Shown: positions 62,230 through 64,000 of the stretch, piece after piece
How the letters are laid out: every line of letters starts with the position of its first letter
How positions within the stretch are numbered: the first letter of the stretch is position 1
Source of the DNA: a bacterium
GTDB taxonomy: Bacteria > Patescibacteriota > Minisyncoccia > Phycocordibacterales > Zambryskibacteraceae
Assembly: GCA_030649135.1 (NCBI GenBank)
Contig: JAUSGI010000004.1
Span: 1-64,000 of the forward strand
Direction: 5' to 3'
DNA length: 64,000 nucleotides
The notes under the pieces: generated by a model
Databases searched by the model: none
What the model was told of the DNA's origin: nothing
What the model saw: only the letters and a program-made list of their open reading frames with translations
Position numbers and translations under genes: made by a program

Positions 62230-62454
62230 ATGCATGTAAAAAAGGGAGACAACGTAATAGTTTTAACGGGAAAAGATAAAGGTAAGATTGGTAAAATCTT
62301 GCGCGCCTTTCCAAAACAAGACCAAGTGCTGGTGGAAGGGGTGAATACCAAAAAGGTTCACGAACGGCCGAAAAAGAGTGGCGCCAAAGGTACCATTATC
62401 GAAAAGAATTTTCCCATTCACGTCTCTAATGTAAAAATCCATGGAAAATCTTAG
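62230..62454 (+). CDS. rplX: Ribosomal protein L24
   Basis: [24 protein letters not shown]… KOW motif. Confidence 0.9.
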
Positions 62455-62953
62455 AGAAAAATCAAAAACGATTCCGGGTTATAAAAACCCCATGCAGGCG
62501 CCACGAGTTTTGAAGGTGGTGGTCTCTTCCGGAGTCGGTTCATTTAAAGACAAGAACAAATTTAAAGTAGTGGAAGACCGTCTGGCGCGTATTACCGGAC
62601 AGAAAGCAGCCCCACGAGGAGCTAAAATTTCGATCGCTACTTTCAAATCTCGACAAGGAGACATTGTGGGCTACCAAGTAACTTTGCGTGGCAAGCGTAT
62701 GTACGATTTTTTGGACAGATTAGTACATCTTGCCCTTCCGCGCACCAAAGACTTCCGTGGTATTTCCCCGAACGCTGTTGATGAGATGGGCAATTATACT
62801 TTGGGTATCAAAGAACACAACATTTTTCCCGAAACTTCCGACGAAGAGCTTAAAGACGTCTTCGGTCTCGCTGTGACCATCGTCACTACCGCCAAGTCCA
62901 AAGAAGAAGTGCTCGCTTTCCTTGCCCATCTCGGTTTCCCGTTCAAGAAGTAG
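62441..62953 (+). CDS. rplE: Ribosomal protein L5
   Basis: …[15 protein letters not shown]…; full-length L5. Confidence 0.95.
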
Positions 62954-62991
62954 AAGTTATCTACATTATATAAAATAGAAAAATCCCCGCG

Positions 62992-63019
62992 CACAGTGCT
63001 CTGTGCGCGGGGGTCTGAA
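62992..63019. terminator. Perfect 12-bp stem hairpin (ccccgcgcacag-tgct-ctgtgcgcgggg). The T-tract is on the minus strand, so it terminates the 63034-63630 gene and is possibly bidirectional after rplE.
   Basis: Seen directly; minus strand continues …GGGGATTTTTCTATTTT. Confidence 0.75.
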
Positions 63020-63033
63020 ATTGTGACGGATAG

Positions 63034-63630
63034 CTATGAGTCCGACAGGATGCGAACATCCGCTTCTGCCGTCGGGCCCTTTTGTGTCAGGAAAGCGATG
63101 GCGCGGGCGAGTAACGCCGGGCTGTCCCGGAACATGGATAGTCCCATGTTGCAGAGCTTGCAGAGCAATGCCATTCTTCTCGCGCCGTAGTGCGCCGCCC
63201 CATAGAGCGAAAGTGGCAATGCCTGCCCAATCTCATCGCATGAGGTTTCGGGCTGGCTGCAGATCGCGCACCGACCACCCTGCTTCTTGAAGAGTTCATT
63301 GTAGTGACCGTTCATTTTCACGGCAGGGTGCGGATGGGTCTGCGCAAGTGGCGGAGCTGCTGATATGACAGCAGGCAATCCCGTGCTCACACCATCGTGG
63401 AGCTTGCAGTTTTGTCTGGTCCTGATGCTACCCCCATATGGGTATGTCCCAAACTCCTCGATTGGCCTGTTTTCTCCGCACTCCTTGCAAGGTCTTGTTT
63501 CCATACCAACCTGCTTTCCTTCCTGAACGTGAAGGTTGCAATCTCGCTGTGCACGACCTCCCGCACCAAGCTTGAAACTGTCCAATGGCCTCATTTTCTC
63601 GCACTTAATGCAGTATCTTTTCCCTCCCAT
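63034..63630 (-). CDS. GC-rich endonuclease VII-like (phage recombination endonuclease family) Zn-finger protein with degenerate catalytic motif
   Basis: C-terminal QGGRCAICSQPE…MALLCKLCNMGLSMFRDSPALLARAIAFL aligns with the Endo VII core QGGxCAICGxxE…GLLCxxCNxGLGxFxDDPxLLxxAIxYL. Two N-terminal Cx2C…CxLH repeats. The expected HVDHDH box is replaced by LSLYGAAHYG. SD AAGGGAG before the ATG. Confidence 0.6.
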   Translation of the reverse strand: MGGKRYCIKCEKMRPLDSFKLGAGGRAQRDCNLHVQEGKQVGMETRPCKECGENRPIEEFGTYPYGGSIRTRQNCKLHDGVSTGLPAVISAAPPLAQTHPHPAVKMNGHYNELFKKQGGRCAICSQPETSCDEIGQALPLSLYGAAHYGARRMALLCKLCNMGLSMFRDSPALLARAIAFLTQKGPTAEADVRILSDS

Positions 63631-63795
63631 GCCATGCTCCCTTCTTTAGGGACGGCAACCAATATGGTCGTCTGAACTTGAGTCTGGCGCGAATCCTACA
63701 TTGTGTCCACGGGTATGGCAAGTCTAAGGTTTGACAATACCCCTTTCAGTTGATAAGCTGAAACGCGAGCTTTTCGAAGCTTTTTTAGTTTAATT

Positions 63796-63981
63796 ATGGC
63801 CAAAACGTCAGTTATTGCTCGGTCGAAAAAGAAGCCCAAGTTCTCCACTAGGGCGACTTCACGCTGTTTCCGTTGCGGCAGGGGCCGCGGTTACATGCGC
63901 GACTTCGACCTTTGTCGTATCTGCTTTCGGGAGCTTGCCAATGAAGGTAAGATTCCGGGTGTAAAAAAGTCTTCTTGGTAA
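63796..63981 (+). CDS. rpsN: Ribosomal protein S14 type Z (Zn-binding)
   Basis: …[26 protein letters not shown]… with C4 zinc ribbon; 61 aa. Confidence 0.9.
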
Positions 63982-64000
63982 TTTCATATGGATACGATTT

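What the first reader, a model, noticed from the sequence alone, without database searches (positions are those of the whole stretch)
62990..63760. Endonuclease VII-like gene with a mutated catalytic box, antisense between rplE and rpsN
Normally rpsN (S14) directly follows rplE. Here a minus-strand GC-rich gene is wedged between them. It is bounded on one side by a perfect 12-bp hairpin whose T-tract is on the minus strand. On the other side lies a minus-strand TTGCCA-17-TAGGAT promoter-like sequence plus an AAGGGAG SD. The protein aligns with the T4 gp49 / actinophage Endo VII core (QGGxCAIC … LLCxxCNxGL…F.D.P.LL..AI) and has two duplicated N-terminal Cx2C…CxLH zinc-ribbon modules. The His/Asp-rich HVDHDH box expected between the zinc knuckles reads LSLYGAAHYGARR. 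It may therefore be a catalytically dead DNA-junction binder or a divergent active site.
Basis: partly seen in the sequence, partly recalled or inferred. Interest (0 to 1): 0.7.

Follow-up and report, generated by a model that had tools for sequence, protein, structure and literature searches.

The report
Nuclease-dead Endo VII-like gene cassette
A small stand-alone gene, wedged backwards between two ribosomal-protein genes of an uncultured groundwater (CPR/Parcubacteria-type) bacterium, encodes a zinc-finger protein descended from phage-type Endonuclease VII/HNH DNA cutters; it has lost the residues needed to cut DNA but is still kept by selection, so it most likely now only binds DNA.

Summary

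Against 135 canonical relatives, residues that are ~99% conserved are replaced in all 13 family members: Asp->Tyr143, His->Gly144, one inserted residue, the VRG Arg lost, Tyr->Phe180. The four Zn cysteines, His147 and Asn161 remain. Published mutants at the Asp/His positions are inactive but still bind DNA.

The gene is not decaying: dN/dS is 0.08 against its ortholog. The dyad-less proteins form one clade; one has an HTH instead of zinc ribbons, and two sit on phage-like contigs.

The gene is accessory. It is absent from almost all close relatives, 5-9 GC points above its surroundings, and found at five or more different loci. The rplE-rpsN junction is itself an insertion hotspot.

Best reading: a nuclease-dead homing-endonuclease-type protein kept as a DNA binder. 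It is a new variant of a known kind, of moderate interest.

The parts
62441..62953 (+). rplE (ribosomal protein uL5), left flank of the insertion
   Evidence: 170-aa ORF; Ribosomal_L5 domains in the ortholog in L001; 80 relatives at 62-92% identity.
62975..63012 (-). Intrinsic terminator of the inserted gene: 12-bp GC-rich stem, 4-nt loop, then ATTTTTCTAT on the minus strand. There is no T-run on the plus strand.
   Evidence: Terminator scan and sequence. An analogous hairpin plus T-run follows every family member in other contexts, but the sequences are unrelated.
63034..63630 (-). Endo VII-like gene, 198 aa, lacking the catalytic dyad (annotated in NCBI as the 156-aa MDO8589807.1)
63079..63312 (-). 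C-terminal Endonuclease_7 / His-Me finger domain (residues 107-184). Zn ligands C121, C124, C157 and C160 are retained.
63169..63213 (-). Variant catalytic box LSLYGAAHYGARRMA (residues 140-154) in place of L(S/A)VDHDH.TG.VRG
   Evidence: Column table: D (0.99) -> Y143; H (0.99) -> G144; inserted A146; H (0.99) kept as H147; R (0.99) -> M153. Y143, G144 and H147 are invariant in 13 of 13 family members.
63313..63396 (-). Pro/Ala-rich linker (residues 79-106), predicted disordered
   Evidence: pLDDT below 50 for residues 81-106. It has the highest dN/dS of the three regions, 0.134, and varies in length among homologs.
63397..63498 (-). Zinc-ribbon module 2 (residues 45-78; C48, C51, C75, H78)
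   Evidence: C48, C51, P56, F60 and C75 are invariant. The fourth ligand alternates between His and Cys among homologs. The module matches module 1.
63529..63621 (-). Zinc-ribbon module 1 (residues 4-34; C7, C10, C31, H34)
   Evidence: Internal repeat score 54 against shuffles of 20 +/- 4. Present in P0002-P0006; a third copy occurs in P0003.
63637..63643 (-). Shine-Dalgarno AAGGGAG, 6 nt upstream of the ATG
   Evidence: Sequence; conserved as AAAGGAG in L001.
63693..63721 (-). Promoter-like TTGCCA-17-TAGGAT for the inserted gene, back-to-back with the rpsN promoter-like site (9 bp between the two -35 hexamers)
   Evidence: Scan. Hexamers and spacing are conserved in L001 while the spacer has diverged.
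63731..63786 (+). rpsN promoter-like TTGACA-17-(TG)A-TAAGCT, followed by a small leader hairpin AGCTT-TTCG-AAGCT and a T-run. This is native to the junction, not part of the insert.
   Evidence: The same TTGAAT-17-TGnTAAGCT plus hairpin plus T-run lies before rpsN in the empty junctions of relatives L012, L014, L019, L026, L032, L049 and L088. Coordinates. No Rfam family matches.
63796..63981 (+). rpsN (zinc-binding, 61-aa uS14), right flank
   Evidence: ORF; 98-100% identical in close relatives.

Best explanation
The gene is a self-contained accessory cassette (own promoter, SD and terminator). It encodes a descendant of the zinc-ribbon + Endo VII-motif ('DHHRN') endonucleases that are common in phages and bacteria. 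In this clade the His-Me finger has lost its metal-binding Asp, its general-base His and the active-site Arg, but keeps its structural zinc site and its fold. It can therefore no longer cleave DNA by the family's mechanism.

The protein is nevertheless kept under strong purifying selection. It most likely works as a DNA-binding protein. The two basic zinc ribbons (replaced by an HTH in one relative) would supply sequence recognition. The dead Endo VII domain would supply extra DNA contacts or self-association. The outcome would be occupation of a site on DNA, such as repression, autoregulation or protection of a target site.

The gene reached this locus by insertion in the common ancestor of this genome and L001. 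It landed at a transcription-unit boundary, between the rplE stop codon and the rpsN promoter, that tolerates insertions in this lineage. It is transcribed divergently from rpsN and terminates at its own hairpin facing rplE.

Shown: homology, residue losses, fold, selection, patchy distribution, varied contexts, and conserved expression signals. Inferred: loss of nuclease activity, DNA binding, and the biological role.
For: Family membership by sequence:
- Pfam Endonuclease_7 above its gathering score.
- PHROG Endo VII 1.4e-15.
- A profile of the family retrieves 48,376 relatives.

Fold:
- The domain model has beta-beta-alpha topology.
- T4 Endo VII is the top Foldseek hit.

Loss of catalytic residues:
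- Canonical D/H/H/R/N are each 0.99 conserved in 135 domains.
- Here they read Y143/G144/H147/M153/N161.
- Y143, G144 and H147 are invariant in 13 of 13 family members.
- In the wider clade H147 is kept in only 4 of 12 members and N161 in only 5 of 12.

Experimental precedent:
- T4 Endo VII D40N/A, H41T, H43T and N62D, and F-CphI D101N and H102T, are inactive but still bind DNA.
- H41 and R54 were conserved in all 313 sequences studied (PMC6083498).
- His-Me fingers with decayed active sites retain DNA binding, e.g. Smad MH1 (PMC5714182).

The gene is functional:
- dN/dS is 0.080 overall, 0.083 in the Endo VII domain and 0.039 in the zinc ribbons.
- Promoter hexamers and SD are conserved in L001.

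One clade:
- The 25 dyad-less domains are monophyletic; 22 of 25 remain together after masking diagnostic columns.

Modular DNA binder:
- P0016 has HTH_23 and HTH_8 in place of the zinc ribbons.
- Ribbon copy number varies from 1 to 3.
- Zinc ribbon 1 has pI 9.6.

Accessory and mobile:
- 12 homologs among 5.8 billion clusters, and 1 of 185,579 species genomes.
- Contexts include rplE/rpsN, infA/rpmJ, next to dCTP deaminase (DCD)/dUTPase genes, next to a LemA gene, and next to an EPSP-synthase-family gene.
- Wider-clade members lie on phage-like contigs.
- Gene GC is 5-9 points above the surrounding locus.
- The window and L001 are sisters in the rplE tree, with empty junctions in neighbouring branches.
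Against: - No biochemical test was possible, so inactivity is inferred from residue identity.
- His147, Asn161, Glu128 and the clade-specific Asp132/Glu133 are well conserved in the narrow family and could in principle form a substitute metal site. I could not measure distances because model coordinates are not exposed.
- The structure models are only moderate (pLDDT 66, pTM 0.36 and 0.53), and the Foldseek E-values are not significant.
- F-CphI R110 mutants lose DNA binding. The loss of this Arg here may mean the dead domain does not contact DNA at all.
- No DNA target, operator or partner gene was identified.
- dS between the window and L001 is near saturation (1.6), so the dN/dS value is approximate.
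Confidence: 0.6

Rival explanations
1. The protein is an active nuclease with a rewired active site. The clade replaced the canonical Asp-His dyad with other residues, such as His147 as general base and Asp132/Glu133 plus Asn161 as metal ligands, or Tyr143 as a nucleophile. It would still act as a free-standing homing or nicking endonuclease, which would explain its spread to different intergenic sites.
For: - Within the narrow family, E128, E133, Y143, H147 (all 13 of 13), D132 and N161 (0.92) are as conserved as the zinc ligands.
- The D(E)xG motif is clade-specific; canonical relatives mostly have a gap or R/N there.
- The gene occurs at several different junctions, as free-standing homing endonuclease genes do.
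- Endo VII-motif homing endonucleases exist, e.g. F-CphI.
Against: - In the wider monophyletic clade the candidate substitutes are not conserved: H147 4 of 12, N161 5 of 12, E133 7 of 12, and Tyr143 is Phe in 3 of 12.
- In T4 Endo VII, H43 cannot substitute for H41, because the H41T mutant is dead.
- The general-base His was invariant in all 313 sequences of the family survey.
- Copies at different loci share no flanking homology or target motif.
- Window and L001 divergence fits vertical inheritance after one insertion.
- The junction also takes up many unrelated genes, so no dedicated nuclease is needed to explain the location.
Confidence: 0.15
2. The gene is a selfish remnant with no function for the cell. 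It would be an inactivated homing-endonuclease gene stranded after invasion and on its way to being lost, as in the classic homing cycle of invasion, degeneration and loss.
For: - Patchy distribution, atypical GC and loss of catalytic residues.
- High turnover of content at this junction.
Against: - dN/dS is 0.08 against an ortholog with dS above 1, and the ratio is low in every domain.
- There are no frameshifts or stops in any of the 13 members.
- The variant box itself is invariant, not randomly decayed.
- Promoter, SD and terminator are maintained.
- The dyad-less clade has diversified widely, down to 45% identity and with new N-terminal domains.
Confidence: 0.07
3. The protein has a translation-linked role: a zinc-dependent regulator or accessory factor for neighbouring zinc-ribbon ribosomal-protein genes (rpsN here, rpmJ in the infA context), or a ribosome-associated zinc-ribbon protein.
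For: - Two independent insertion sites lie immediately upstream of zinc-binding r-protein genes: rpsN in the window and L001, and rpmJ in L002-L006 and L010. A third copy is two genes from rplY.
- Its promoter-like site is back-to-back with the rpsN promoter-like site, 9 bp apart, a layout typical of divergently transcribed regulators.
Against: - Other copies sit next to unrelated genes: a LemA gene, an EPSP-synthase-family gene and dCTP deaminase (DCD)/dUTPase genes.
- Most relatives manage without it.
- The rplE-rpsN junction accumulates many unrelated inserts, so proximity is explained by permissiveness.
- The L28/L24e similarity is generic to treble-clef zinc ribbons and ranks below all HNH hits.
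Confidence: 0.08

Closest known systems
F-CphI / 'DHHRN' family of Endo VII-motif homing endonucleases (cyanophage S-PM2 ORF177; PMC6083498)
   Same: The Endo VII motif lies at the C-terminus behind an N-terminal DNA-recognition region. The gene is small, free-standing and sits between conserved genes. It shares the CX2C...CX2C structural zinc site and Pfam Endonuclease_7 homology.
   Different: Three of the five name-giving residues (D, first H, R) are replaced in every member of the clade. No intron association, no identified target site, and cellular (CPR) rather than phage hosts for the narrow family.
Phage T4 endonuclease VII (gp49), Holliday-junction resolvase (PDB 1en7, 1e7l, 2qnc)
   Different: D40, H41 and R54 have no equivalents. 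The motif is C-terminal, not N-terminal. The T4 C-terminal helical dimerisation and junction-binding domain is absent, because the protein ends about 37 residues after the CN motif. N-terminal zinc ribbons are added. There is thus no basis for resolvase function or junction specificity.
Canonical zinc-ribbon + Endo VII proteins of bacteria and phages (e.g. P0020, P0045; 'endonuclease VII' of T7-like phages; zinc-ribbon HNH enzymes, PMC3592412)
   Same: The domain order and the CxxC..(K/R)P...F......C..C ribbon modules are the same. Identity is 33-44%, and the motifs QGG.CAIC..PET, LLC..CN.GL..F.D.P.LL.AI are shared.
   Different: These relatives all keep VDH(D/C/N)H.TG.VRG and the Tyr of AI.YL (0.99 each). 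The window clade does not.
Catalytically inactive His-Me finger domains recruited for binding (Smad MH1; Enpp nuclease-like domain; PMC5714182)
   Same: The evolutionary route is the same: a His-Me finger that lost the catalytic His but kept the fold and, for MH1, zinc-stabilised DNA binding.
   Different: These are unrelated eukaryotic families in other His-Me groups. That survey reports no inactive members in its Endonuclease_7 group.

Membership tests
Pfam PF02945 Endonuclease_7 (sequence family) | HMM score above the curated gathering threshold | tested here: met
   33.1 bits against a cutoff of 23.6, residues 109-182 matching profile positions 14-81 of 82. Nine of ten wider-clade members also pass.
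His-Me finger / HNH fold | Beta-hairpin followed by an alpha-helix (beta-beta-alpha-Me), stabilised here by a CX2C...CX2C zinc site | tested here: met
DHHRN / Endo VII-motif endonucleases (PMC6083498) | Metal-binding Asp (T4 D40) | tested here: not met
   Tyr143 in 13 of 13 family members, against Asp in 0.99 of 135 canonical domains.
DHHRN / Endo VII-motif endonucleases (PMC6083498) | General-base His (T4 H41), invariant in all 313 surveyed sequences | tested here: not met
   Gly144 in 13 of 13, against His in 0.99 of canonical domains.
DHHRN / Endo VII-motif endonucleases (PMC6083498) | Second His (T4 H43) | tested here: met
   His147 is invariant in the narrow family, displaced by a one-residue insertion. 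It is kept in only 4 of 12 wider-clade members.
DHHRN / Endo VII-motif endonucleases (PMC6083498) | Active-site Arg (T4 R54; F-CphI R110) | tested here: not met
   Met153 here, and variable across the family (H, Q, Y, N, K). Arg in 0.99 of canonical domains.
DHHRN / Endo VII-motif endonucleases (PMC6083498) | Metal-binding Asn after the second CX2C (T4 N62) | tested here: met
   Asn161 in 0.92 of the narrow family (Ser in P0012), but in only 5 of 12 wider-clade members.
DHHRN / Endo VII-motif endonucleases (PMC6083498) | Mg2+-dependent DNA cleavage | not testable with these tools
   Requires purified protein.
T4-type Holliday-junction resolvase (Endo VII resolvase clade) | N-terminal Endo VII motif followed by a C-terminal helical dimerisation/junction-binding domain, with alignment over the whole length of gp49 | tested here: not met
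   The motif is C-terminal and the protein ends at residue 198. MAFFT aligns only the core of T4 gp49; about 90 C-terminal gp49 residues are unmatched. tblastn of gp49 against the window gives E 0.64.
Free-standing homing endonuclease gene | Presence/absence polymorphism at the same conserved site across lineages, with spread independent of host phylogeny | tested here: inconclusive
   Presence/absence polymorphism is seen. However, the two occupied rplE-rpsN sites are sister lineages, consistent with vertical descent after one insertion. Other copies are at different loci with no shared flanks.
IS200/IS605-type transposon cargo | Linked Y1 transposase and conserved subterminal hairpin ends around the gene | tested here: not met
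   A Y1_Tnp gene adjoins the gene only in L006. There it was inserted between infA and an existing copy, with the infA 3' end duplicated. No Y1 gene is present near the window copy, and the ends are not conserved.

The most novel reading that the evidence does not exclude
The clade is not dead but has re-invented catalysis on the Endo VII scaffold. It would use the clade-specific acidic pair Asp132/Glu133 with His147 and Asn161, or the invariant Tyr143 as a nucleophile. That would make it a new active-site class of His-Me finger nuclease, acting as a free-standing homing or nicking enzyme that targets the conserved translation-gene cluster of CPR bacteria.
Probability: 0.12. Interest if true: 0.75.

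Novelty: new variant of a known kind. Interest (0 to 1): 0.42.

Why it matters
The clade is a natural, selected example of an Endo VII/HNH nuclease converted into a non-cutting protein inside the Endonuclease_7 family. Neither survey I read reports this: H41 and R54 were invariant in all 313 sequences of one (PMC6083498), and the other lists no inactive members in its Endonuclease_7 group (PMC5714182).

Practically, automatic annotation as 'endonuclease' is misleading for these genes. The clade also offers a ready-made DNA-binding scaffold without cleavage activity.

For CPR/Patescibacteria biology, the work shows that junctions inside the ribosomal-protein cluster, especially rplE-rpsN, are active landing sites for small accessory genes. 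That matters for the use of these syntenic blocks in phylogenomics and binning, and for understanding gene flow in very small genomes.

It does not open a long-standing question, and the role of the protein remains inferred.

Tried and rejected
- Direct PDB sequence search gave only a marginal Hpy99I hit (E 0.27) over the C-terminal helix.
- PADLOC defence models and NCBIfam gave no meaningful match, so there is no evidence for a defence-system role.
- Rfam found no known RNA element in 62300-64000.
- Transposon cargo was rejected. The Y1 transposase neighbour in L006 is a later, independent insertion, and gene flanks are not conserved between contexts.
- Prophage or phage residence of the window copy was rejected. 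Its neighbours are core ribosomal genes, IMG/VR holds no narrow-family member (66 canonical boxes among the matches), and GenBank phages match at 30% identity or less.
- An active paralog as heterodimer partner was not found within the 64-kb window. The rest of the genome is unseen.
- The species-genome scan returned a single locus identical to P0004. It used narrow peptide patterns, so rarity may be somewhat overstated.
- I could not measure distances among D132, E133, H147 and N161 because model coordinates are not exposed.
Full report
**1. What is in the sequence**

Between rplE (62441..62953, +) and rpsN (63796..63981, +) lies an 842-bp spacer. It holds one long ORF on the minus strand, 63034..63630, of 198 aa.

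- AAGGGAG lies 6 nt before the ATG.
- A TTGCCA-17-TAGGAT promoter-like site is at 63721..63693.
- A perfect 12-bp GC-rich hairpin at 63012..62985 is followed by a T-run on the minus strand only.

The promoter match alone is not above chance (2 found, 1.2 +/- 1.2 expected). In the ortholog L001, however, both hexamers, their 17-nt spacing and the SD are kept while the spacer sequence has diverged.

The gene is 55.4% GC (GC3 61.8%), against 46.8% for the window.

NCBI already holds this gene as MDO8589807.1, 'endonuclease domain-containing protein', but starts it at Met43. The longer form is supported by the SD, by conservation of the first zinc-ribbon module in homologs, and by dN/dS of 0.039 over residues 1-78.

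**2. What the protein is**

Its architecture has three parts:
- Two zinc-ribbon modules (residues 4-34 and 45-78; Cx2C...Cx2H). They are a real internal duplication, with alignment score 54 against 20 +/- 4 for shuffles.
- A Pro/Ala-rich linker predicted to be disordered.
- A C-terminal Endonuclease_7 domain.

Homology to Endo VII is significant. Pfam gives 33.1 bits against a cutoff of 23.6, and PHROG Endo VII families match at 1.4e-15 and 1.6e-13.

A profile of the family searched against 1.84 billion representatives finds 48,376 relatives. Only six score at or below 1e-30, so this is a narrow clade inside a huge zinc-ribbon + Endo VII superfamily.

**3. The catalytic box**

I aligned the core of 135 canonical domains, 13 narrow-family members and 12 wider dyad-less relatives.

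| T4 Endo VII position | Canonical (n = 135) | Narrow family (n = 13) | Wider clade (n = 12) |
|---|---|---|---|
| D40 | Asp 0.99 | Tyr143, 13 of 13 | Tyr 9, Phe 3 |
| H41 | His 0.99 | Gly144, 13 of 13 | variable |
| (insertion) | gap 1.00 | Ala146, 0.85 | mostly gap |
| H43 | His 0.99 | His147, 13 of 13 | His 4 of 12 |
| R54 (the Arg of VRG) | Arg 0.99 | Met153 here; variable | mostly Lys or Arg |
| N62 | Asn 0.99 | Asn161, 0.92 | Asn 5 of 12 |
| Gly of GLG | Gly 0.93 | Ser165, 0.85 | mixed |
| Tyr of AI.YL | Tyr 0.99 | Phe180, 0.92 | Phe 6, Leu 6 |

The four zinc-binding Cys are kept everywhere. A clade-specific PE.xxD(E)xG motif appears upstream of the box.

These positions are the name-giving residues of the 'DHHRN' family (PMC6083498). 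That paper reports the following:
- H41 and R54 are invariant in all 313 sequences it surveyed.
- T4 Endo VII D40N/A, H41T, H43T and N62D are inactive but still bind DNA.
- F-CphI D101N and H102T are likewise inactive but still bind DNA.
- F-CphI R110A/T loses DNA binding.

By the family's known mechanism this protein cannot cleave DNA.

**4. A selected state, not decay**

- All 13 members carry the same LSLYGAAH(Y/F) box.
- Against the L001 ortholog (75-78% amino-acid identity), dN/dS is 0.080 overall: 0.083 in the Endo VII domain, 0.039 in the zinc ribbons and 0.134 in the linker. For comparison, rplE gives 0.028. dS is near saturation, so the values are approximate.
- The 25 dyad-less domains form one clade in an NJ tree, and 22 of 25 stay together when the diagnostic columns are masked. 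This fits a single ancestral loss followed by diversification. Two caveats apply: the alignment is short with no bootstraps, and the sample is biased toward hits of the family profile.
- Within that clade, P0016 replaces the zinc ribbons with HTH_23/HTH_8 domains, and ribbon copy number varies from 1 to 3. This is the modular 'DNA-recognition module + Endo VII domain' design of homing-type endonucleases, and it points to DNA as the ligand.
- Two wider-clade members lie on phage-like contigs. One sits among many small same-strand ORFs with a UvsW-like helicase and a DnaB gene. The other is next to dCMP deaminase and methyltransferase genes.

**5. Genomic behaviour**

The family is rare. There are 12 homolog clusters among 5.8 billion, one locus among 185,579 species genomes, though the search patterns were narrow, and no narrow-family member in IMG/VR.

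Copies occur in at least five contexts:
- Antisense after rplE, in the window and L001.
- Co-directional between infA and rpmJ/rpsM in Parcubacteria-labelled MAGs (a Saccharibacteria-labelled MAG for L010), in L002-L006 and L010.
- Next to dCTP deaminase (DCD)/dUTPase genes, near rplY.
- Next to a LemA gene.
- Next to an EPSP-synthase-family gene.

Each copy has its own hairpin-plus-T terminator, but flanks are not homologous between contexts. It is therefore a bare gene cassette, not a transposon with defined ends. In L006 a Y1 transposase gene adjoins it, but that gene was inserted later between infA and an existing copy, duplicating the infA 3' end.

In an rplE tree the window and L001 are sisters, and neighbouring branches have empty junctions or different inserts. 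This indicates one insertion in their common ancestor.

**6. The junction is a hotspot**

Of 55 relatives in which both rplE and rpsN were found, the spacing breaks down as follows:

| rplE-rpsN spacing | Number of loci |
|---|---|
| 24-105 bp | 22 |
| 149-382 bp | 13 |
| 0.5-2.2 kb | 20 |

The large gaps hold unrelated cargo:
- Y1/IS200-like transposase genes.
- A toxin-antitoxin-like pair of ORFs.
- A small zinc-ribbon ORF.
- 188-191-aa ORFs shared by two loci.
- ORFs that look like membrane proteins.
- A possible methyltransferase.

These labels are my reading of the translations; the gap ORFs were not scanned against Pfam.

Empty junctions share a TTGAAT-17-TGnTAAGCT promoter-like element and a small hairpin with a T-run directly before rpsN. 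The window keeps this at 63731..63786. The junction is therefore a transcription-unit boundary, which explains why it tolerates insertions, even antisense ones. The inserted gene's promoter-like site lies back-to-back with the rpsN one, with 9 bp between the two -35 hexamers.

**7. Interpretation**

Best explanation (confidence about 0.6): a nuclease-dead descendant of a homing-type zinc-ribbon/Endo VII endonuclease, kept as a DNA-binding protein. It was acquired horizontally, probably from phage-borne relatives, and sits at a permissive operon boundary. Precedent exists for His-Me fingers that lost catalysis but kept DNA binding, such as Smad MH1 (PMC5714182).

Rivals:
- A rewired active site using D132/E133/H147/N161 or Tyr143 (0.15). 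This is disfavoured because those residues are not conserved across the wider clade.
- A decaying selfish remnant (0.07). This is contradicted by the purifying selection.
- A translation-linked regulator of neighbouring zinc-ribbon r-protein genes (0.08). It is suggested by adjacency to rpsN and rpmJ and by the divergent promoter layout, but other contexts do not fit.

'Holliday-junction binder' is not supported. The T4-type C-terminal dimerisation domain is absent, and the domain order matches the endonuclease clade, not the resolvase clade, of PMC6083498.

**8. Novelty and score**

The gene sequence is in public databases under a generic and truncated annotation. A selected, monophyletic Endo VII clade lacking the catalytic dyad is not described in the two family surveys I read, and nothing relevant surfaced in full-text searches.

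It is a new variant of a known kind. Interest is moderate (0.42). It is a clean case of nuclease-to-binder conversion, and a useful caution for annotation. A side result on ribosomal-cluster insertion hotspots in CPR bacteria adds some value. The function remains inferred, and no long-standing question is opened.

Noticed in passing
window 62954..63795, and loci L011-L090 (rplE-rpsN junctions): The rplE-rpsN junction is an insertion hotspot in this CPR lineage. Of 55 relatives, 20 carry 0.5-2.2 kb of unrelated cargo there. By my reading of the translations (not Pfam-scanned), this includes Y1/IS200-like transposase genes in L016, L024 and L045; a toxin-antitoxin-like pair plus a small zinc-ribbon ORF in L017 and L045; similar 188-191-aa ORFs in L054 and L081; and membrane-protein-like ORFs in L022 and L028. 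Occupied and empty states are interleaved on the rplE tree.
   Followed up: partly
window 63731..63786; L012, L014, L019, L026, L032, L049, L088 just upstream of rpsN: A conserved promoter-like element, TTGAAT/TTGACA-17-TGnTAAGCT, is followed by a short hairpin and a T-run immediately before the rpsN start codon. It looks like an internal promoter plus a leader or attenuator for the rpsN-rpsH-rplF unit. No Rfam family matches it.
   Followed up: partly
L018 3504..3886 and L011 923..1429: The inserts after rplE in these relatives are bounded by a direct duplication of the last ~40 nt of rplE (...CTCGG(T/C)TT(T/C)CCGTTTAAGAAATA(G/A) appears twice). This suggests site-specific integration into the 3' end of rplE that regenerates the gene end, as integrative elements do at tRNA genes.
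   Followed up: no
L006 1608..2321: A 237-aa Y1 (IS200-like) transposase gene lies between infA and the Endo VII-like gene. Its 3' end repeats the infA 3' end (...ATCACGA(A/G)(G/A)CGACTTTAG), the same 'duplicated gene end' signature. What appear to be similar Y1 genes occupy the rplE-rpsN junction in L016, L024 and L045; I did not align them with the L006 gene.
   Followed up: partly
L001 2610..3485: In the closest relative, a prephenate dehydratase (PDT) gene sits inside the ribosomal cluster between the Endo VII-like gene and rpsN, together with ~500 bp of extra sequence. A metabolic gene in this position is unusual.
   Followed up: no
window 63034..63630 (-), NCBI MDO8589807.1: The public annotation starts the gene at Met43 (156 aa) and so omits the first zinc-ribbon module. 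The 198-aa form has the SD and is conserved in homologs.
   Followed up: yes
L091 1..8459: A Hainich groundwater contig has a phage-like replication module: a UvsW-like helicase, a reprolysin-like metalloprotease, many small same-strand ORFs, and a DnaB gene. It carries a dyad-less Endo VII-like gene (P0110), so it may be a phage reservoir of the nuclease-dead clade.
   Followed up: no
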